Source: Klebsiella phage ZCKP1. From it: 64,000 nucleotides of DNA. Shown piece by piece: positions 4,131 through 56,908 of the stretch; positions within the stretch are counted from its first letter, which is position 1; each line of letters begins with the position of its first letter. Both the position numbers and the translations under genes were made by a program. A model generated the notes under the pieces. That model did not search any database. It was given only the letters and a program-made list of their open reading frames with translations, and had not been told where the DNA came from. The DNA is taken from the sequence record MH252123.1, one strand, 5' to 3'.

Positions 4131-4480
4131 TTCTTTTTGCTCCTCTTTTTAGATTTCTCATACAAACCTAACACAGCCGCTTCTTTTGCACAAGTAGGAA
4201 CTGAAGTCATTCCTCTTCTTTTTGCTTCTGGAAGATTGAGTGTCCACCATCCGAACCAATAAATTTGGTCTGCCGTGAGTGGTTCAGCCATTGGATCTGC
4301 CTCCTGCTCCTCAAGACGTTGCAACGCTTCTTCAATCTTCTCGATTGGTGTGTCAAAGACGAATGCCTCCGTATCAAATTTATCTTTCTTAGGAACTGAT
4401 TTGGCTACTTTGAGAACCTCGTTTTTCGGTTTCTTAGTAACGTTCTTTGGCTTTGATAACTTCTTCGGTGTTTTCGCCAC
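4127..4480 (-). CDS. lysine-rich basic protein (possible nucleic-acid binding)
   Basis: K-rich N- and C-termini (KKPKNEVLKVAKSVPKK ... KSKKRSKKK). Confidence 0.4.
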   Translation of the reverse strand: MAKTPKKLSKPKNVTKKPKNEVLKVAKSVPKKDKFDTEAFVFDTPIEKIEEALQRLEEQEADPMAEPLTADQIYWFGWWTLNLPEAKRRGMTSVPTCAKEAAVLGLYEKSKKRSKKK

Positions 4481-4673
4481 TTACTACCTCCATACGATCT
4501 AAAAAGTCATTCACAAATCTCCAGTAACGTTGACCTGTTCTAAGATCTTCATAGATAACTACAGGATCAAACACTTTAGATATTCCGGCAGGTTTTGGAA
4601 ATTCCACTACCGTATATAAACCACCTTTTGCTACACAAGAATAGGTTACGCCTGTAATTGGATAGTTGCTCAT
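4434..4673 (-). CDS. hypothetical protein
   Basis: 79-aa ORF. Confidence 0.35.
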   Translation of the reverse strand: MSNYPITGVTYSCVAKGGLYTVVEFPKPAGISKVFDPVVIYEDLRTGQRYWRFVNDFLDRMEVVSGENTEEVIKAKERY

Positions 4674-4864
4674 TTCTTTACGTACTCCATGATTGGGGTA
4701 TGGTCGCCAGTAAGCGTAACACGGCTGTAGGACACATCTTGTGTCTTCAGTGTATCAATCCACTCTAAGAAGTGTTCTTTCGCTTCTGTGTAGTTCTGTG
4801 TGCCTTTAACAACGTGTATACCATCTAGAGTTACACGGAATACCATTTGAATAACGTCTTTCAT
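4670..4864 (-). CDS. hypothetical protein
   Basis: 64-aa ORF. Confidence 0.35.
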   Translation of the reverse strand: MKDVIQMVFRVTLDGIHVVKGTQNYTEAKEHFLEWIDTLKTQDVSYSRVTLTGDHTPIMEYVKK

Positions 4865-10969: not shown

Positions 10970-13045
10970 GTGGCAAAGAAAAAGGCAGCAGGTAGTTTAG
11001 CTGGAGTAGATATTGAAGTAAAGGCTCAACCAGGTAAACAGACTCTTGCAATGGATTTAATGCCAGAAGTTATGATTTATGGTGGTGCCGCTGGATGTGT
11101 TTCTGCTGAAACGGAATATCTTACAAAAGATGGTTGGAAACAGATTAGTGAATATTCGGGAGAGGATATTTACCAATACAACCCTAAGAATAAGCGTTTA
11201 GAATTGGTAACACCTTACTTTGTAGAATACGATTTAAATGGAGATAATCTATACAGAATAACAAATGGTGTAGGATTGTTCCAAGAACTTAGTATGGAAC
11301 ACCGTTTTGTATTCTATAAGAAAAAGAAATCAAAGAAACATTTCGAGATTCTTGTAGGAGATCTTATTGCATTACAGCAAATAGGAAAACCCCTGCAAGG
11401 TTATGTAGAAAATCCATTCGGTAAACGTGTTCCTTTTAACATACCTGGTAAAAAGAGCACTTACTTAAAAATACACGAGGTTATTTCAACAGATGATAAG
11501 AAATATTGTTTTGAGACTCCAAGCAGCTATATTGTCTTTAGACGTGGCGATCACTGCTTCGTTACTGGGAATAGCGGCAAGTCTCGTCTGCTATTGCTGA
11601 AAGCTTTAAAATACGCCTACAAAGACCCTTTGTTTGGTGGAATACTTTTCCGTAAGAACACCACTGCTCACCGTAAACCAGGTGGTCTGTTTACAGAAGC
11701 AAAACGTTTGTATCTTCCTTTACAACCGCACGTAAAAGAAAGTACAATGGATATCATTTTTGAAGCCACTGGTGGTGGAACCCTCAAATTTGACCATTTG
11801 GAAAATGATAACGTAACAGCAGAAACAAACCATCAGGGTACACAGTATTCAATGGTAGGTTTTGATGAGTTAACCCACTTCACGCAATATGAAATGCTCT
11901 ATCTTCTGGGACGTATGCGTTCAGAATCAGAAACAAGCTTCATGTTGTGCACATGTAACCCCGATGCAGATAGTTGGGTTTTGAATTGGGTATTACCTTA
12001 TCTCGATGAGGGCGGTTATCCTAGAGAAGATATGTGTGGTAAACAAAAATATTTCATCATTGTTAACGATGAACCTGTTTTTGCTGACACACCTGAAGAA
12101 CTGAAAGAAAAATATCCAGAAAACTGTTTCATGGAAAACCCTAATACAGGGGAGACAGTTGTTATTGAACCACAAACTTTCGTATTTATCGGTGGGACAA
12201 TATTTGATAACCCAGAATTGATTAGGCTTAACCCTAATTATTTAGCACAGCTTAAATCACAAACAGCAATCAAAAGAGCACAACTCTTGGACGGCTGTTG
12301 GTTTGCACGTATACAGAAAGAGTCTTTCTTCCAACGTGAATGGTTGCATAAGATATCTTATAAAGATGTTCCTAATAATCTTAAACTAATGCGAGCATGG
12401 GATAAAGCTGTTTCAGTTCCTACAGAAACTTATCGTTATCCAGACTATACAACATCTGTCAAAATGGGTAAAGACCAAGATGGTAATATCTACATCTTTG
12501 GTGACTATGATTATGATGCTGTGGATGAGAAAAGTAAAATTTTCGGAAGGTTTCGAAGATTACCTGGGGAAAGGGATAACCTGATTCTAAATCAATGTAA
12601 GATTGATGGACCAGAAGTTACAGTAGTGCTTCCTAAAGACCCATCTGGTGCTGGGACAATAGAATATACAGAATCTGCAAAGAAACTTATTCTAGAGGGT
12701 TTTGTTGTTAAACCAGATGCTATGCCAGGTAACAAGAAAAAGCTTCAGCGTTTTATGCCTTTTAGTAGTGCGTGTCAAAACGGTTTTGTTTATATTGTTG
12801 AAGATTCTTTCCCTAATGTGGAAACTCTAACCCACTTTTATAAAGAATTGGAATCTTTCAATGGTGAAAGATCTACAGCCACTATTAAAGATGACATTCC
12901 CGATGCTGCTGCTTCTTGTTTTAATACTCTGTCAAAAGAGAATACTTTCAAGGCAGTAGCTATCCCTACAACAACAAATGCTCCTACAGGATACAGTAGA
13001 ATGAACAGCGGATTTCACCAACCGTATAGTGTCCGTAAAAGATAA
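10970..13045 (+). CDS. terL: terminase large subunit (intein-containing precursor)
   Basis: extein sequence MIYGGAAG|SGKSRLLL reconstitutes Walker A; Walker B MVGFDELTHF; sits upstream of the portal gene. Confidence 0.85.
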   Translation: MAKKKAAGSLAGVDIEVKAQPGKQTLAMDLMPEVMIYGGAAGCVSAETEYLTKDGWKQISEYSGEDIYQYNPKNKRLELVTPYFVEYDLNGDNLYRITNGVGLFQELSMEHRFVFYKKKKSKKHFEILVGDLIALQQIGKPLQGYVENPFGKRVPFNIPGKKSTYLKIHEVISTDDKKYCFETPSSYIVFRRGDHCFVTGNSGKSRLLLLKALKYAYKDPLFGGILFRKNTTAHRKPGGLFTEAKRLYLPLQPHVKESTMDIIFEATGGGTLKFDHLENDNVTAETNHQGTQYSMVGFDELTHFTQYEMLYLLGRMRSESETSFMLCTCNPDADSWVLNWVLPYLDEGGYPREDMCGKQKYFIIVNDEPVFADTPEELKEKYPENCFMENPNTGETVVIEPQTFVFIGGTIFDNPELIRLNPNYLAQLKSQTAIKRAQLLDGCWFARIQKESFFQREWLHKISYKDVPNNLKLMRAWDKAVSVPTETYRYPDYTTSVKMGKDQDGNIYIFGDYDYDAVDEKSKIFGRFRRLPGERDNLILNQCKIDGPEVTVVLPKDPSGAGTIEYTESAKKLILEGFVVKPDAMPGNKKKLQRFMPFSSACQNGFVYIVEDSFPNVETLTHFYKELESFNGERSTATIKDDIPDAAASCFNTLSKENTFKAVAIPTTTNAPTGYSRMNSGFHQPYSVRKR
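11096..11572 (+). other. mini-intein (about 159 aa) inserted in the terminase Walker-A loop
   Basis: starts CVSAETEYLTKDGWKQI (Hint block A), ends DHCFVTGN with +1 Ser; no endonuclease domain. Confidence 0.6.
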
Positions 13046-52781: not shown

Positions 52782-55700
52782 CTAGTGACAGGACGCCCAG
52801 GAGTTACCCACATCATATCCGGCAGTAAGCTGAACATTAAGATTGTAAAATTCTCCAGCCTTAGTAACAGCTAAAGCAGCAAGTTCACCTGCCCGACTAT
52901 AGGCTGTAAACCATCCACCTTTGGGAGATTCATGAATGTTAGCCCAAATTTGCCCTGTCTCTTTTTCCTTATTATGCTTCCATTCTTCAACTTTAGCAAG
53001 GCATTCTTTATCAATTTTCTTTTGTTCTTCAGGATCGTCTACTTTCTTCCAACCTAATGATTCAGGTGAAAACCATTTAAATTCTACAAGGTTACGAGAA
53101 ACTTCAAGCTGGGCTTCATCGTGATATGCAATCATTTGTTGCACGAAGTCTTTATTCTTCCAGTCATCTTTAAAGAAGTCAACACTTAGCCCTTCTTCTT
53201 CGATCATGTCATCATAAATAACCATTGCACGTTTGGCACAGATAACCCCACCACTTTGGAACAGAGAGTTAAGAATCGCGTGAGCAGAACGAGTAGGAAC
53301 CTTACGACCGTCAATACCCAAAACATACTGTTTACCAGTCTTAACCCAGAAATCGTTTAAACGTTCTTTAAGACGCGCCAGTGGGAATGCAGCTTCCCAG
53401 AAAGCATCGAACACCAGTTGCCCTGTGTATTTATCGCTACCAATTGTTTTAGCAACCTTGTCTGCTTGTGCACCATAAGTGATCCCGTATTTAACAGATT
53501 TCGCCGGACTACGTTCAAATTTACGTCCAATAGTTTCAGTGATACGTTTTGCCATCATTGTGTGAACATCATTAGGTTTCTCTAACAACAGAGCGTTACA
53601 ATATTCGTGTGGCTCCGGCTCGTACCGCCAACAGTTTCCTGTGATGGTAATGCAGTCTTTCTGACGCATGACCCACGTACCAAGTTCTGTTTGTGGACAC
53701 CAAACATCCTCTACACCCCACTCTTCAATAGTCAAACTTTGAACAGGAATGTGAGAGCGGTTAGTCAATGTTGCCACTTTTACTTTCTGCTCTTTTGTAT
53801 TGAAAGCTACAGAGATATTGCCTCCATGCACCAGGTACGAGGCAGTTAAAGCTGCTTCAAAAAGTTCACCTGGGTTCTGCGCCCAACGCCAAACAGGTTT
53901 TTGTTTATGTTCATGCCAGTAACCATCTGCAATCAAGAAACCTTCCAAGAAAGCTACACGCTCGGCATGAGACATATTAACTACACGCTCTACCCACGGA
54001 ACATCCCATTTACCTTGTTGAACATAAGTTAAACTATTTACCTGATCTTGTTCCATGTTAAATGGAGCATTACAAATAATATTATCTCCTGTGCAAAGCT
54101 CGGCAGTTGTTCTGACTTTAGGCACATAAGTATTCCCTTTACTACGGGTATTAACATACCAACGGTGATCTGCTGTTGCACGGTAAGTGTGTGATTTCCC
54201 TTTAATCTCAAACGTCTTACTATTTTTATAGAAGACCTTACCTTTTACTTTAGTCCATTCTTTCAGACCTGTTTCAGCATTGTACCCTAAAATCTCATCC
54301 CCTTCCTTCAGGTCGTGATATCCTACCCAACCTTTACGAGTCAAAGCTTGAGCATCCATCGGCACACAGTAATGTGACTCAATCTTTGCTTCCAAAGAGT
54401 CGAAGTCATAACCAATCTGGAAGTATTTAGGAACTTCTACACCAAACAAGTTACGCATCTCCCATCCAAACAAAGATGTGACACGAGGGATATTGGCTAC
54501 AGATCTATGCTTCATACGAGAGGTGGCAGCATCACATGTAGCGGCTGGGGTAGGAATACGCCCATCCGCCCTTACTGCGGCTAAGAAACCTTTATCGTAT
54601 TCTTGATCTTCTTCATCTTCTTCCCAATCAGCACCGCCACCTAAAATAGAGTTCCTACGATGCTTATACGTTAAGTATTCTACAATCTGTGTAGCATACG
54701 GGAATTTCTCACCCAAAGCTTGCAGGTTAGGACAGATTTCTTTTTCCTGACCTTTGGTAAAGCATGGGTTAGTCAATACTTTAAGACCGCGACCTTTACC
54801 TTTTGCTATACGCTCTTGAATCTTCCTTTCCAAAGTTTCCGGTGTGCACTCCAGATGATCACAACGATCCTGACAAAAATTAGAAGATAGAGTTTGCTCA
54901 ACGTAAGCTCGAATACCTTTCTGAAGTTCTTCCTCGCTCTTTTTAATCTTGGTGCCAGATTTAAGAGTCAAATCTTTATCTTTATATTCAGATGGTACCC
55001 AACCTAATCCTACAAGCCAGTTTTTAATATGGGTAGTATCGTTCAATGTTGCAGGGATATTAGGATCACACAAAGGCTCATCTGCTGCAACTGGCAGTTT
55101 CCACTCTTTCCCCAACATCACTAACCACCAATCTCCATCCCTCTCTTCCAAATGACCATCATGTTTCTTAGCAAAATTGATCATATGGTTAGTTGGCTCT
55201 AAGTTCTTTTTAATTTGCAACTTAGGTGGAATAAAAGCCTTAAGATAACCTTTTGTTGCTGGTTTAGGTGGCAAAATAGGCTCAACGAGTAAACGAAGAC
55301 GCTCCATTTCTGCATCCAAAAAAGCAAGGTTCTCTTCTGCTTGCTTCATGTTAAAAGCAAACCCACGGTGTTCCTGGCGTGTAATAATGTCTGCTACACG
55401 TTGTTCAAGTTCAAATGGACCTTCCCATTTATCATAATCACCCCATTCTTCCATAAGGTAATTATATACACTTGTGTTGGCTTTGTTATCATAGATACAG
55501 TAATAAAGCATATCCGCAGCAAAAGTCTTAAATCGATCTTCTTCTGGAATCTCTTTACGGAAATCTATTTTTACATCACCGCCTGCTTTTCGAGAAAGTG
55601 CTGCCAAGCTATGTCCTGATTTGCCCTCAATCTTTCGATCTGGGTTTAACACTTTACTCAAAATCAAAGAGTCAATAAGTTTTACCTTATTTTTGCCCCA

Positions 55701-56114
55701 CGTGTTATATTTAACACTGTAATCTAATCCATAAAACAGTTTTGTAGCCAACCAGTCATAGTTGATACCGTTGTGTGCCACAGCCATTTCAACCAAATAT
55801 TCAGGCTTGTCTTTAAAATAACCTTCATGATTAATAAAGTCTGGGAAATCTTTTAGTTGAAAATGTGTGTAATCTTGCGCCACATATTCTTTAAGAACAT
55901 ACGTGTATTTACCATCTGATTCTTCATAAGGACGCCCGTCAAAAATATACTTAGGGCCATCGTGGAAAGCTACTATTTCTCCTGTTTCATGGTTCTCTAA
56001 GACAATACAGTGCATTTGAAATGTGTCTTTGAGACGATAAGGACTAGCTAAATAATCGATAGTGTCATTATTCAACAATCCGTTTGCTTCAATATCCCAT
56101 GTAAACTTACTCAC
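52782..56114 (-). CDS. family A DNA polymerase with 3'-5' exonuclease domain (intein-containing precursor)
   Basis: Exo I DIEANGL; motif A IGYDFDSLEAKIESHY; motif B RSPAKSVKYGITYG; motif C MIAYHDEAQLEV; GTG start after AAGGAGG. Confidence 0.85.
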   Translation of the reverse strand: MSKFTWDIEANGLLNNDTIDYLASPYRLKDTFQMHCIVLENHETGEIVAFHDGPKYIFDGRPYEESDGKYTYVLKEYVAQDYTHFQLKDFPDFINHEGYFKDKPEYLVEMAVAHNGINYDWLATKLFYGLDYSVKYNTWGKNKVKLIDSLILSKVLNPDRKIEGKSGHSLAALSRKAGGDVKIDFRKEIPEEDRFKTFAADMLYYCIYDNKANTSVYNYLMEEWGDYDKWEGPFELEQRVADIITRQEHRGFAFNMKQAEENLAFLDAEMERLRLLVEPILPPKPATKGYLKAFIPPKLQIKKNLEPTNHMINFAKKHDGHLEERDGDWWLVMLGKEWKLPVAADEPLCDPNIPATLNDTTHIKNWLVGLGWVPSEYKDKDLTLKSGTKIKKSEEELQKGIRAYVEQTLSSNFCQDRCDHLECTPETLERKIQERIAKGKGRGLKVLTNPCFTKGQEKEICPNLQALGEKFPYATQIVEYLTYKHRRNSILGGGADWEEDEEDQEYDKGFLAAVRADGRIPTPAATCDAATSRMKHRSVANIPRVTSLFGWEMRNLFGVEVPKYFQIGYDFDSLEAKIESHYCVPMDAQALTRKGWVGYHDLKEGDEILGYNAETGLKEWTKVKGKVFYKNSKTFEIKGKSHTYRATADHRWYVNTRSKGNTYVPKVRTTAELCTGDNIICNAPFNMEQDQVNSLTYVQQGKWDVPWVERVVNMSHAERVAFLEGFLIADGYWHEHKQKPVWRWAQNPGELFEAALTASYLVHGGNISVAFNTKEQKVKVATLTNRSHIPVQSLTIEEWGVEDVWCPQTELGTWVMRQKDCITITGNCWRYEPEPHEYCNALLLEKPNDVHTMMAKRITETIGRKFERSPAKSVKYGITYGAQADKVAKTIGSDKYTGQLVFDAFWEAAFPLARLKERLNDFWVKTGKQYVLGIDGRKVPTRSAHAILNSLFQSGGVICAKRAMVIYDDMIEEEGLSVDFFKDDWKNKDFVQQMIAYHDEAQLEVSRNLVEFKWFSPESLGWKKVDDPEEQKKIDKECLAKVEEWKHNKEKETGQIWANIHESPKGGWFTAYSRAGELAALAVTKAGEFYNLNVQLTAGYDVGNSWASCH
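53634..54368 (-). other. intein (about 245 aa) with LAGLIDADG homing-endonuclease motif, inserted after Pol motif A
   Basis: begins CVPMDAQALTRKGWVGYHDLKEGDEILGY (Hint block A), contains ERVAFLEGFLIADGYW, ends DCITITGN with +1 Cys; extein junction ...ESHY|CWRY. Confidence 0.65.
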
Positions 56115-56908
56115 TATTCCTCCTTTCTAATGTTCTCCAGAACCCACTGAAGCTCTTTTAAACTTAAACTTCTTACTCCCGCAGTTTTACTAGCTTCGGC
56201 TTTAAGTAACGGGTAAGCCTCAATGATACGCGTTTTAAGATCAGAAGTCAAGGCTTTTAAAAAATAGGTAGATGCTTCAGATAAAGAATCTTCTTCTGAT
56301 AACACTTTACCTGCACTTGCTCCCGCTCTCCTAACGGCTATGTCGTAGTCTTTACTGTTGCCTAATACGAATAGTCGATTTTCTCCTAAAACAACGGGAG
56401 AACGCTTCTCGTTGCGTTTAATCCATACCTGGAATACACAAGGAACATCCCAAGGTTCTCCATGAAGAATAAAAGATCCTTTTGGACATTCTTCTTCGTA
56501 AAGAAGATGCATGTGGGGATTTAGTTTGTGTGCAAAAAAGATTTTTTGAAATGTGCGAGGCAAGATAAAACAAATACCACCTTCGTTATCCAGCATTTCA
56601 GCACAATGGTTAAAGAACTTAATGGCAAGACTAGCATTTTTTCCAAATGGAGGATTACCGACAAAAGCAGTTACACTACCAACAGATTCAACAGATTGAG
56701 CTAAAAAATCTGCCTCAATACAATCTTCAAACTTAGGGTCAATATCAAAAGAAGTTATGTTTTTAAAACAAGAAGAGAAAGCTCCTTCTCCCGCAGATGG
56801 TTCTACGTAGTTAGCTTCCTCTCCAAAAATTTCTTTGATCTTATCACATAAGAACCCCGCATAAGCGGGGTTAGTGTAATATTGATCAAGTGTGTTCAAC
56901 TTGCTCAA
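56114..56908 (-). CDS. N6-adenine DNA methyltransferase (orphan)
   Basis: motif I YVEPSAGEGAF and motif IV VGNPPFGKN (gamma-class order); stop TAG overlaps polymerase GTG start (TAGTG). Confidence 0.7.
   Translation of the reverse strand: MSKLNTLDQYYTNPAYAGFLCDKIKEIFGEEANYVEPSAGEGAFSSCFKNITSFDIDPKFEDCIEADFLAQSVESVGSVTAFVGNPPFGKNASLAIKFFNHCAEMLDNEGGICFILPRTFQKIFFAHKLNPHMHLLYEEECPKGSFILHGEPWDVPCVFQVWIKRNEKRSPVVLGENRLFVLGNSKDYDIAVRRAGASAGKVLSEEDSLSEASTYFLKALTSDLKTRIIEAYPLLKAEASKTAGVRSLSLKELQWVLENIRKEE

What the first reader, a model, noticed from the sequence alone, without database searches (positions are those of the whole stretch)
53634..54368. LAGLIDADG-containing intein immediately after DNA polymerase motif A; both inteins end in TGN
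The polymerase is interrupted between ...SLEAKIESHY and CWRYEPEP by a 245-aa element. The element begins with Cys and Hint block A. It carries a single LAGLIDADG-type motif, FLEGFLIADGYW, and ends ...ITITGN followed by +1 Cys. Like the terminase intein it lacks the penultimate His (TGN end). That shared ending suggests the two inteins are related.
Basis: seen in the sequence. Interest (0 to 1): 0.6.

Follow-up and report, generated by a model that had tools for sequence, protein, structure and literature searches.

The report
Mobile intein in phage DNA polymerase
The 245-residue insert in this coliphage DNA polymerase is a real, recently mobile self-splicing intein; GenBank already annotates it in a sister phage, but it belongs to a very large phage intein group with an unusual catalytic make-up and only half of the usual homing nuclease.

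Summary
Window 53634-54368 (- strand) encodes a 245-aa in-frame insert, CVPMDAQ...ITITGN, followed by Cys+1. It lies 11 residues after the motif A aspartate of a T7-like family A polymerase.

It is an intein:
- Closely related Phapecoctavirus phages carry an allele exactly 735 nt shorter, with the seamless junction ...ESHY|CWRY.
- AlphaFold gives a confident HINT fold (pLDDT 92.6) with one LAGLIDADG core inserted.
- Structure search finds PI-SceI and VMA inteins.

It is or recently was mobile. Between phage genera the intein is 92-97% identical but the flanking polymerase only 77-79%.

It is not new as an object: GenBank MZ501100 (phage PaulScherrer) annotates this intein.

- It combines Cys1 with the class 3 Trp/Cys/Thr triplet (W70, C224, T243).
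- Its closest solved relative, the class 3 AceL NrdHF intein, also ends in TGN; there, Arg B:11 is thought to stand in for the missing penultimate His.
- The same make-up marks a clade of more than 3,600 sequence clusters. All 220 N-termini examined start with Cys, and ~245 aa with one LAGLIDADG motif is the commonest form.
- Pfam, NCBIfam and PHROGs do not recognise it.

The terminase mini-intein is only a distant relative and is present throughout the group. Splicing route and nuclease activity remain untested.

The parts
52782..56114 (-). Intein-containing family A (T7-like) DNA polymerase precursor gene, 1110 codons plus stop
   Evidence: ORF list. Pfam DNA_pol_A on the C-extein. The intein-free allele aligns to T7 DNA polymerase, E 2.5e-23.
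54369..56114 (-). N-extein (aa 1-582), ending ...YDFDSLEAKIESHY (polymerase motif A)
53634..54368 (-). The intein, 245 aa
   Evidence: The same 735-nt element is annotated as mat_peptide 'intein' in MZ501100.
54057..54368 (-). HINT N-terminal lobe (intein aa 1-104). Contains block A (Cys1, 54327-54368) and block B T65-A-D-H68-R69-W70 (54159-54176).
   Evidence: All-beta in the model; motif coordinates; family conservation.
53997..54056 (-). Linker, intein aa 105-124; lowest-confidence part of the model
   Evidence: Per-block pLDDT falls to 63 for aa 111-120.
53754..53996 (-). Single LAGLIDADG core (intein aa 125-205). The motif FLEGFLIADGYW is aa 140-151 (53916-53951). D148-G149 and Q164 are conserved across the family.
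   Evidence: [quoted passage not shown] Foldseek matches to I-CeuI, the PI-SceI nuclease domain, I-DmoI and I-OnuI. Family invariants. dN/dS about 0.05.
53634..53753 (-). HINT C-terminal lobe (aa 206-245). Contains block F VWC224PQTELGTWVMRQ (53661-53705) and block G ITIT243-G244-N245 (53634-53651).
53631..53633 (-). +1 Cys, the first C-extein residue
52782..53633 (-). C-extein (CWRYEPEP... to the stop codon), carrying polymerase motifs B and C
11096..11572 (+). Terminase large-subunit mini-intein, 159 aa, no nuclease domain. It splits the Walker A motif (GAAG|C...FVTGN|SGKS). Block B is SMEHRF, block F is KYCFET. It is a distant relative of the polymerase intein.
   Evidence: Present in 69 of 71 related phage records.

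Best explanation
This is a genuine protein-splicing intein that is, or very recently was, mobile. It interrupts the phage's replicative T7-like DNA polymerase just after motif A. The precursor folds into a HINT domain with one LAGLIDADG core inserted. The intein cuts itself out and joins ...ESHY to CWRY..., giving the 865-aa polymerase that intein-free sister phages encode directly.

It belongs to a very large phage and metagenome clade. That clade has an invariant Cys1, a TxxH-[K/R]-W block B, a VWCPxT block F and an ITITGN end followed by S, T or C at +1. [quoted passage not shown] It lacks both histidines that normally help Asn cyclisation.

My inferred mechanism has four steps:
1. Splicing starts with an N-S acyl shift at Cys1, helped by T65 and H68. 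I put this at about 55%. The alternative, an obligate class 3 attack by Cys224, I put at about 30%.
2. Cys224 takes the place of the usual Asp F:4, either as a helper or as a relay thiol.
3. The acyl group passes to Cys+1.
4. Asn245 cyclises with help from Arg69 (B:11) rather than a penultimate His, as proposed for the AceL NrdHF intein.

The single LAGLIDADG core keeps its catalytic Asp148. I think it is the homing nuclease and would have to pair with a second copy to form an active site (about 50-55%).

Shown here: the exact insert and empty site, the fold, the motifs, clade membership, purifying selection and horizontal transfer. Inferred: that splicing occurs, the order of nucleophiles, the role of Arg69, and nuclease activity and dimerisation.

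The confidence value given applies to the core claim (a real, splicing-competent, recently mobile intein of this clade). The mechanistic sub-claims carry the lower probabilities stated above.
For: Empty allele and site:
- The empty allele is exact, 735 nt shorter, in five sequenced relatives.
- T7 polymerase has no insert at this position.

Fold:
- Foldseek versus PDB: TliVMA intein E 6e-9, then PI-SceI and PI-PfuI. Mini-inteins also match, including the class 3 AceL NrdHF, MchDnaB1 and Msm DnaB inteins.
- The middle domain alone matches I-CeuI, the PI-SceI nuclease domain (rmsd about 2.2 A over 75 residues), I-DmoI and I-OnuI.

Catalytic motifs:
- H68/W70, C224 and T243-x-N245 have the same relative positions as H65/W67, C124 and T143-x-N145 in MchDnaB1 (PMC7664689). 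The triplet is defined in PMC2807308.
- The family profile's best PDB match is the AceL NrdHF class 3 intein (E 2e-6 to 4.5e-7). That intein has H68-R69 and ends T144-G145-N146|S. In it, G145H abolishes activity and R69A slows splicing (PMC7891396).

Clade:
- 8682, 3607 and 753 cluster representatives at E <= 1e-3, 1e-10 and 1e-30.
- 220 of 220 N-termini are Cys, and 198 have H[KR]W.
- VWCPxT and ITITGN|S/T/C are near-universal.
- The commonest length is 240-259 aa with one LAGLIDADG-like motif.

Selection:
- dN/dS is about 0.03-0.05 for the intein and about 0.05 for the nuclease core.
- D148, G149 and Q164 are conserved across hosts.

Mobility:
- 33 phage records carry the intein, against 125 with the polymerase.
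- Alleles with and without the intein share the same flank haplotypes.
- Within Phapecoctavirus the intein is 99.2-99.7% identical and the exteins 94-99%.
- Between Phapecoctavirus and Justusliebigvirus the intein is 92-97% identical and the exteins 77-79%.
- Inteins at the identical HY|[CT][WY][RK]Y site in far more distant polymerases are 39-47% identical to this one, while their exteins are 26-34% identical.

Viability: all carriers are plaque-isolated phages, and this is the only polymerase gene seen in the locus, so splicing must work (inference).
Against: - No biochemical data exist for this element or for any Cys1+WCT+TGN member I could find.
- Both histidines that usually assist Asn cyclisation are absent: G244 at G:6, and no His in block F, C224-Q236.
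- Pfam, NCBIfam and PHROGs give no significant intein or LAGLIDADG hit. A profile of the middle domain finds no LAGLIDADG protein in PDB by sequence.
- One LAGLIDADG core cannot form the canonical two-Asp active site alone. The empty site shows no palindromic symmetry beyond chance: at most 5-6 of 11 pairs, where the median of the best value in shuffles is 6.
- The excess identity of the intein could come from ordinary phage recombination plus constraint rather than nuclease-driven homing.
- Foldseek E-values for the isolated core are weak (7e-3 and above), although the matches are consistently LAGLIDADG proteins.
Confidence: 0.85

Rival explanations
1. It splices by the class 3 route. Cys224 (block F:4), not Cys1, attacks the N-terminal scissile bond and forms a block F branched thioester. 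The acyl group is then passed to Cys+1. On this reading Cys1 is dispensable for chemistry and is kept for another reason, such as redox control through a disulfide.
For: - The full WCT triplet is present at the canonical positions.
- The closest solved relative by profile is the experimentally class 3 AceL NrdHF intein, which has the same H-R block B and TGN end.
- Cys F:4 is invariant in the clade.
- Tori et al. 2010 already listed 3 of 37 WCT inteins with an N-terminal Ser or Cys.
- From memory only, because the paper is not held: Tori and Perler 2011 reported that such inteins still use the class 3 route.
Against: - Cys1 is kept in 220 of 220 N-termini across dozens of host proteins. Position 1 is non-nucleophilic and varied in accepted class 3 inteins.
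- Thr B:7 of the class 1 TxxH motif is conserved here. Class 3 inteins generally do not conserve that position (PMC7891396).
- The +1 residue is Cys, which had been seen in only one class 3 intein, Bvi IcmO (PMC5222942).
Confidence: 0.3
2. The LAGLIDADG core is a decaying or non-catalytic remnant, half of a former two-core nuclease. The intein no longer homes by itself. It persists by vertical descent and spreads only through general recombination between co-infecting phages, or through a nuclease supplied in trans.
For: - There is only one core.
- The target site has no pseudo-palindromic symmetry.
- No sequence-level match to LAGLIDADG families.
- Relatives exist in which the core has been deleted (P0006 versus P0002, also P0056 and P0058), showing that loss does happen.
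- The UAB_1 intein is a recombinant mosaic.
Against: - The core is under purifying selection (dN/dS about 0.05).
- The catalytic Asp, the following Gly and a Gln are invariant or nearly so across hosts.
- The one-core form of about 245 aa is the commonest architecture of a clade that has colonised many different proteins and sites. That is hard to achieve without a working targeting module.
- The intein is much less diverged than its flanks between genera.
Confidence: 0.35
3. The insert is not an intein. It is a lineage-specific polymerase subdomain, or an in-frame insertion that stays in the mature enzyme.
For: Most GenBank records simply call the 1110-aa ORF 'DNA polymerase I'. The standard HMM libraries see no intein.
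Against: - Sister phages about 97% identical lack exactly these 245 codons.
- T7 polymerase is colinear across the site.
- The insert has a HINT fold with Cys1, TxxH, a C-terminal Asn and Cys+1.
- The same element occurs in unrelated host proteins.
- An insert of about 27 kDa next to the motif A helix would be expected to disrupt the active site (inference).
Confidence: 0.02

Closest known systems
Intein annotated in the DNA polymerase of Escherichia phage PaulScherrer (Bas60, GenBank MZ501100; BASEL collection, PMC8594841); also phage SD2 (PQ821640)
   Same: It is the same element at the same site and the same length (735-nt mat_peptide 'intein'). It is 91.6% identical in DNA and has the same catalytic residues.
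   Different: That record is an annotation only. No class assignment, nuclease description or experiment was found. The host polymerase is only 77-79% identical. Most Phapecoctavirus records do not annotate the intein.
AceL NrdHF split intein (PDB 6zgq; Hoffmann et al. 2020, PMC7891396), class 3
   Same: It is the best PDB match to the family profile (E 2e-6 to 4.5e-7) and a structural match. It comes from a phage-like contig. It has His68-Arg69 in block B, Cys at F:4, a Thr-Gly-Asn C-terminus, and neither the F:13 nor the G:6 histidine.
   Different: AceL has Ala1 and Met at B:12, is naturally split around a GIY-YIG gene, and has Ser+1. This intein has Cys1, Trp at B:12 and Cys+1, is contiguous, and carries a LAGLIDADG core. 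The sequence match covers only the N-terminal lobe.
Canonical class 3 inteins (MP-Be DnaB, MchDnaB1, Msm DnaBi1)
   Same: The Trp B:12 / Cys F:4 / Thr G:5 triplet is present with the same spacing (H-x-W; Cys 21 residues before Asn). The fold is HINT and the proposed origin is phage.
   Different: Those inteins lack an N-terminal nucleophile, keep the penultimate His, and usually have Ser or Thr at +1. Their nucleases, where present, have two LAGLIDADG motifs (blocks C and E).
Nuclease-bearing class 1 inteins PI-SceI, TliVMA, PhoVMA and PI-PfuI
   Same: These are the best whole-model structural matches (TM-score 0.6-0.72 normalised to the query). The LAGLIDADG domain is inserted at the same point in the HINT fold.
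   Different: Those have two LAGLIDADG cores, often plus a DNA-recognition region, in 360-540 aa. They have Asp at F:4 and a penultimate His. This intein has one core in 245 aa.
Homodimeric single-motif LAGLIDADG nucleases (I-CreI, I-CeuI, I-MsoI)
   Same: [quoted passage not shown] I-CeuI is the second-best structural match to the isolated core. The rule that single-motif enzymes act as homodimers is stated in PMC2655683.
   Different: Those are free-standing or intron-encoded and cut pseudo-palindromic sites. This core is embedded in an intein and its presumed target shows no symmetry.
Mycobacteriophage Bethlehem gp51 RDF intein (penultimate Gly)
   Same: It is a phage intein with Gly at the penultimate position. 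Replacing Gly with His impairs splicing (PMC5050341). This shows that a GN ending can be functional.
   Different: It is described as a class 1 intein in a different host protein. Relatedness to this intein was not tested here.

Membership tests
Intein (HINT-domain protein-splicing element) | In-frame insert whose removal restores a contiguous, conserved host protein | tested here: met
   Five relatives carry an allele exactly 735 nt shorter, reading ...ESHY|CWRY.... T7 polymerase is colinear across the site.
Intein (HINT-domain protein-splicing element) | Splice-junction residues: Cys/Ser/Thr at position 1, block B TxxH, C-terminal Asn, Cys/Ser/Thr at +1 | tested here: met
   C1, T65 and H68, N245, C+1.
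Intein (HINT-domain protein-splicing element) | HINT fold | tested here: met
   Model pLDDT 92.6. The best PDB matches are inteins, with E down to 6e-9.
Intein (HINT-domain protein-splicing element) | Penultimate His (block G:6); common but not obligatory | tested here: not met
   The residue is Gly244. Active inteins with Gly here are known.
Intein (HINT-domain protein-splicing element) | Demonstrated splicing | not testable with these tools
   Splicing is inferred only from the viability of isolated phages that carry the intein in their polymerase gene.
Class 3 inteins | WCT triplet: Trp B:12, Cys F:4, Thr G:5 | tested here: met
   W70, C224 and T243, with the same spacing as MchDnaB1. Conserved clade-wide.
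Class 3 inteins | No N-terminal Cys/Ser/Thr | tested here: not met
   Cys1 is present here and in 220 of 220 clade N-termini.
Class 3 inteins | Ser or Thr at +1 (one known exception) | tested here: not met
   Cys+1 here. Most clade members have Ser or Thr.
Class 3 inteins | Obligate Cys F:4 nucleophile and a block F branched intermediate | not testable with these tools
   Requires C1A and C224A mutants and trapping of the intermediate.
Class 1 inteins | N-terminal nucleophile plus Thr B:7 and His B:10 | tested here: met
   C1, T65, H68.
Class 1 inteins | Asp (typically) at F:4, and His at F:13 and G:6 to assist the junction reactions | tested here: not met
   C224 at F:4. There is no His in C224-Q236, and G:6 is G244.
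Intein-borne LAGLIDADG homing endonuclease (PI-SceI type) | LAGLIDADG core fold with an acidic residue at the end of the motif | tested here: met
   D148 and G149 are conserved.
Intein-borne LAGLIDADG homing endonuclease (PI-SceI type) | Two cores or motifs (blocks C and E) in one chain | tested here: not met
Intein-borne LAGLIDADG homing endonuclease (PI-SceI type) | Site-specific cleavage of the empty allele | not testable with these tools
   Only indirect evidence is available: horizontal transfer and a presence/absence polymorphism.
Homodimeric single-motif LAGLIDADG nucleases (I-CreI type) | One motif per chain | tested here: met
Homodimeric single-motif LAGLIDADG nucleases (I-CreI type) | Pseudo-palindromic target | tested here: inconclusive
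   At most 5-6 of 11 symmetric pairs within 14 bp either side of the insertion point. This is no better than shuffled sequence, and the test has little power.
Homodimeric single-motif LAGLIDADG nucleases (I-CreI type) | Dimerisation through the LAGLIDADG helices | not testable with these tools
   Only single-chain prediction was available.

The most novel reading that the evidence does not exclude
This intein represents a very large phage clade that has not been classified. The clade needs both the class 1 nucleophile (Cys1, 220 of 220) and the complete class 3 triad (Trp B:12, Cys F:4, Thr G:5), and lacks both Asn-cyclisation histidines. [quoted passage not shown] Published work has argued that such an intermediate is evolutionarily improbable (PMC7664689). 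In addition, its one-core LAGLIDADG domain would be the first intein-borne homing nuclease that has to act as a dimer.
Probability: 0.25. Interest if true: 0.7.

Novelty: new variant of a known kind. Interest (0 to 1): 0.45.

Why it matters
As an object it is ordinary: an intein in a phage polymerase, already annotated in one GenBank record. Three wider points could matter.

1. Origin of class 3 splicing. A clade of thousands of sequence clusters keeps Cys1 together with the class 3 Trp/Cys/Thr triplet. [quoted passage not shown] The other is that it arose by convergence, because intermediates would not survive (Beyer et al. 2020). This clade looks like that intermediate state, and a handful of point mutants would test it.

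2. A compact nuclease. A 245-aa intein with a single LAGLIDADG core is the commonest form of a clade that has invaded many genes. If it is active, it is a compact, dimer-dependent homing module inside an intein.

3. Annotation. Pfam, NCBIfam and PHROGs all miss the family, so these inteins are systematically unannotated in phage genomes. A 2024 paper still states that no inteins are reported in coliphages (PMC11162368).

Tried and rejected
- Pfam, NCBIfam and PHROGs scans of the intein and of its middle domain gave nothing significant; the only hit was LAGLIDADG_3 at E 0.14.
- A single-sequence PDB search gave only marginal hits. A profile of the middle domain against PDB found no LAGLIDADG protein, so fold comparison was needed.
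- I tested whether alleles with and without the intein differ consistently at the target, which would indicate an immunity or co-conversion haplotype. They do not: both flank haplotypes occur with and without the intein. The apparent cluster of synonymous differences seen against Schickermooser alone is therefore not a signature.
- I tested the empty site for palindromic symmetry and found none above chance.
- My first, position-wise N-extein identities against Justusliebigvirus (about 42%) were an artefact of indels. I redid them with an alignment and got 77%.
- Pairwise BLASTP of the two window inteins was nearly uninformative. Profile methods were needed.
- I tried to read Tori and Perler 2011 (J Bacteriol 193:2035) and the supplement of Tori 2010 to learn how WCT inteins with Cys1 or Ser1 splice. 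Neither is held. Anything I say about that result is from memory.
- Model coordinates are not exposed, so Cys1-Cys224-Cys+1 distances could not be measured.
- A scan of all window ORFs with the family HMMs found no third intein.
- The 'polymerase subdomain' reading was rejected.
Full report
**1. The observation**

Window 53634-54368, read on the - strand, translates to the 245-aa sequence CVPMDAQALT...FLEGFLIADGYW...ITITGN. It lies in frame inside a 1110-codon ORF, 52782-56114 (-), between ...SLEAKIESHY and CWRYEPEP.... The terminase ORF (10970-13045, +) contains a second, 159-aa element at 11096-11572. It splits the Walker A motif (GAAG|CVSAETEY...FVTGN|SGKS) and also ends in TGN.

**2. It is an intein, not a polymerase subdomain**

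The window is about 98% identical to Phapecoctavirus coliphages. Of the megablast hits, 32 records cover the whole gene. The next-best hits cover exactly 78% of it in two pieces.

I fetched five of these shorter alleles: Schickermooser, ESCO13, phAPEC8_ev052, tuntematon and DE16. Each encodes an 865-aa polymerase that is exactly 735 nt shorter and reads ...SLEAKIESHY|CWRYEPEP... without interruption.

The intein-free protein aligns to T7 DNA polymerase (E 2.5e-23) with no gap across the junction: 'ydfdsleakieshy|cwry' against 'idasglelrclahf|marf'. This places the insertion 11 residues after the motif A aspartate.

An AlphaFold model built on 53 relatives is confident (pLDDT 92.6, pTM 0.89). 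[quoted passage not shown] Foldseek against PDB returns the TliVMA intein (E 6e-9), PI-SceI, PhoVMA and PI-PfuI. Behind them come mini-inteins, including the class 3 AceL NrdHF, MchDnaB1 and Msm DnaB inteins.

Modelled alone, the middle domain best matches WhiA (a LAGLIDADG-derived factor), I-CeuI, the PI-SceI nuclease domain (rmsd about 2.2 A over 75 residues), I-DmoI, I-AniI and I-OnuI. There is only one such core.

**3. It is already annotated**

The 735-nt element occurs in 33 phage records. Two of them, PaulScherrer (MZ501100, BASEL collection) and SD2, annotate an 'intein-containing DNA polymerase precursor'. In PaulScherrer the annotation includes a 735-nt 'intein' mat_peptide. The BASEL paper mentions only that inteins were identified during annotation.

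I found no paper describing this intein. A 2024 paper states that no inteins have been reported in coliphages. Pfam, NCBIfam and PHROGs do not recognise it, which explains why most records call the ORF simply 'DNA polymerase I'.

**4. Evidence for mobility**

- *Polymorphism.* Roughly a third of the close (95-99% identical) relatives carry the intein.
- *Flank haplotypes.* Presence is independent of the flanking haplotype. ECO340P2 (with the intein) shares its flanks with tuntematon and DE16 (without). ESCO5 and Ro121c4YLVW share theirs with ESCO13 and phAPEC8 (without). Susceptible-looking empty sites therefore exist, and gain or loss has happened more than once.
- *Within the genus.* The intein is 99.2-99.7% identical among Phapecoctavirus phages, while the exteins are 94-99% identical.
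- *Between genera.* Between Phapecoctavirus and Justusliebigvirus the intein is 92-97% identical and the flanking polymerase only 77-79%.
- *A mosaic.* In Salmonella phage UAB_1, intein nucleotides 106-735 are 99-100% identical to the window but the first 105 nt only 79%. This marks a recombination breakpoint inside the intein.
- *Same site in distant polymerases.* Metagenomic Pol A proteins carry 253-256-aa inteins at the same site (...LE.R...HY|C...ITITGN|T[WY][RK]YD). These inteins are 39-47% identical to this one, while the exteins are 26-34% identical.
- *Selection.* dN/dS is about 0.03-0.05 over the intein and about 0.05 over the LAGLIDADG core.

**5. The catalytic make-up**

| Block | Residues in this intein |
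|---|---|
| A | Cys1 |
| B | T65-A-D-H68-R69-W70 |
| F | V-W-C224-P-Q-T... |
| G | T243-G244-N245 |
| +1 | Cys |

The class 3 signature is the triplet Trp B:12, Cys F:4, Thr G:5. G:6 is the penultimate residue and G:7 the Asn (PMC2807308; PMC3196547). In MchDnaB1 the corresponding residues are H65/W67, C124 and T143-H144-N145. Here they are H68/W70, C224 and T243-G244-N245, with the same 21-residue spacing from Cys to Asn.

So the intein carries the complete class 3 triplet. It also carries the class 1 Cys1 and Thr B:7.

It lacks the penultimate His, and block F (C224-Q236) contains no His either.

A family profile finds the AceL NrdHF intein (6zgq) as its best PDB match, at E 2e-6 and 4.5e-7. 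That intein was shown experimentally to be class 3. It has H68-R69-M70 and C124, and it ends T144-G145-N146|S. It too lacks both histidines. In it, G145H abolishes activity. Arg69 (B:11) lies within hydrogen-bonding distance of the C-scissile carbonyl, and R69A slows splicing (PMC7891396). The TGN ending therefore has a characterised precedent, and Arg69 here is the obvious counterpart. A penultimate Gly is also functional in the Bethlehem RDF intein.

**6. The clade**

A word-indexed profile search returned 75 proteins. An exhaustive HMM search of 1.84 billion cluster representatives returned 8682 at E <= 1e-3, 3607 at <= 1e-10 and 753 at <= 1e-30.

In the best 218 proteins:
- all 220 detected intein N-termini are Cys;
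- block B is H[KR]W in 198 (HRF in 7, H-x-M in 3);
- blocks F and G are almost uniformly VWCPxT...ITITGN followed by S, T or C.

Host sites include:
- a small phage protein invaded at two positions four residues apart (FDVYP|SAYANGW and WPSAYA|SGALVKCRK);
- Pol A at the motif A and motif B sites;
- metallophosphoesterase-like proteins;
- terminase P-loops.

The commonest length is 240-259 aa (109 of 213), with one LAGLIDADG-like motif. Across hosts the core keeps an Asp-Gly (D148-G149 here) and a Gln (Q164). Relatives with the core deleted also exist (P0006 versus P0002).

**7. The terminase intein**

It aligns colinearly with the polymerase-type inteins. The shared residues are Cys1-Val2, L9, G13-W14, His B:10 followed by Arg, Cys F:4, Thr F:7 and T-G-N. 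It has Phe rather than Trp at B:12.

A polymerase-type HMM built without it scores it at E 7e-6, against 0.23 for the best of 5000 shuffles. hhalign gives 96.5% probability over the N-terminal 76 columns. The reverse HMM search was not significant. Identity is about 19% and BLASTP is marginal.

It has no nuclease domain, and 69 of 71 related phage records carry it. The two inteins are therefore distant members of one broad group. They are not recent copies of each other.

**8. How it most likely works**

*Shown:* the exact insert and empty site, the HINT plus one-core LAGLIDADG fold, the motif complement, clade membership, purifying selection and horizontal transfer.

*Inferred:* the intein splices, because its carriers are viable isolated phages and the insert sits next to the catalytic motif A.

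*Splicing route.* I favour a start at Cys1 (about 55%). Cys1 is kept in 220 of 220 members and Thr B:7 is conserved, whereas accepted class 3 inteins have varied non-nucleophilic residues at position 1. The equally invariant Cys F:4, Trp and Thr, together with kinship to a proven class 3 intein, keep an obligate class 3 route (about 30%) or a Cys1 to Cys224 to +1 relay open. Arg69 probably assists Asn245 cyclisation.

*Homing.* A single LAGLIDADG motif normally means a homodimeric enzyme that cuts a pseudo-palindromic site (PMC2655683). The empty site shows no symmetry above chance, but the test is weak. I put an active, dimer-dependent nuclease at about 50-55% and a non-catalytic remnant at about 35%.

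**9. Novelty and score**

The element itself is known at the annotation level. Penultimate Gly, WCT inteins with an N-terminal nucleophile (3 of 37 in 2009) and the TGN/Arg B:11 arrangement all have precedents.

I could not find a description of three things:
- the size and uniformity of the Cys1+WCT+TGN clade;
- its one-core LAGLIDADG architecture;
- its invisibility to the standard HMM libraries.

The clade bears on the argument that class 3 inteins cannot have diverged from class 1 because intermediates would be non-functional (PMC7664689).

I rate it a new variant of a known kind, with interest 0.45.

Noticed in passing
window 11096-11572 (+): The terminase large subunit carries a 159-aa mini-intein with no nuclease domain, inside the Walker A P-loop (GAAG|C...FVTGN|SGKS). 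Unlike the polymerase intein, it is present in 69 of 71 related phage records. PHROGs absorbs it into phrog_979 'terminase large subunit'. It also matches a PhoH-like family (phrog_32482), which suggests a related P-loop intein there.
   Followed up: partly
L010 (Salmonella phage UAB_1, OL656106), intein region: The UAB_1 intein is a mosaic. Its first 105 nt are 79% identical to the window, like the flanks. Nucleotides 106-735 are 99-100% identical. This points to a very recent exchange between Justusliebigvirus and Phapecoctavirus, with a breakpoint inside the intein.
   Followed up: partly
proteins P0002-P0058 (metagenomic relatives): One small phage protein family (motif ...[FW]P-SAYA-[NS]G...) is invaded by inteins of this clade at two sites only four residues apart: FDVYP|SAYANGW and WPSAYA|SGALVKCRK. 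The inteins at the two sites differ in size class (about 243 aa and about 280 aa).
   Followed up: no
proteins P0076 and P0078: Two inteins of this clade sit in one metallophosphoesterase-like host protein (...ITITGN|SFQGGE and ...ITITGN|CYPR..).
   Followed up: no
hit H74, Escherichia phage nepoznato (MN850571), terminase gene: In this relative the terminase match is split into two pieces about 1 kb apart, and an 'HNH homing endonuclease' is annotated between them. This is a separate mobile element in the same gene.
   Followed up: no
window 53634-54368 and 11096-11572: Pfam-A, NCBIfam and PHROGs give no significant intein or Hint hit for the polymerase intein, and Pfam/NCBIfam give none for the terminase intein, although the clade has thousands of cluster representatives. 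This is a gap in the standard annotation libraries.
   Followed up: yes
L002 (Ro121c4YLVW, MH051333), positions 4234-4815: This near-identical phage annotates the polymerase CDS as 33 codons shorter at the N-terminus. The next annotated CDS past the polymerase start is a 483-nt hypothetical gene, whereas the window has a 795-nt methyltransferase-like ORF there (56114-56908). This is either a difference in annotation or a local gene replacement.
   Followed up: no
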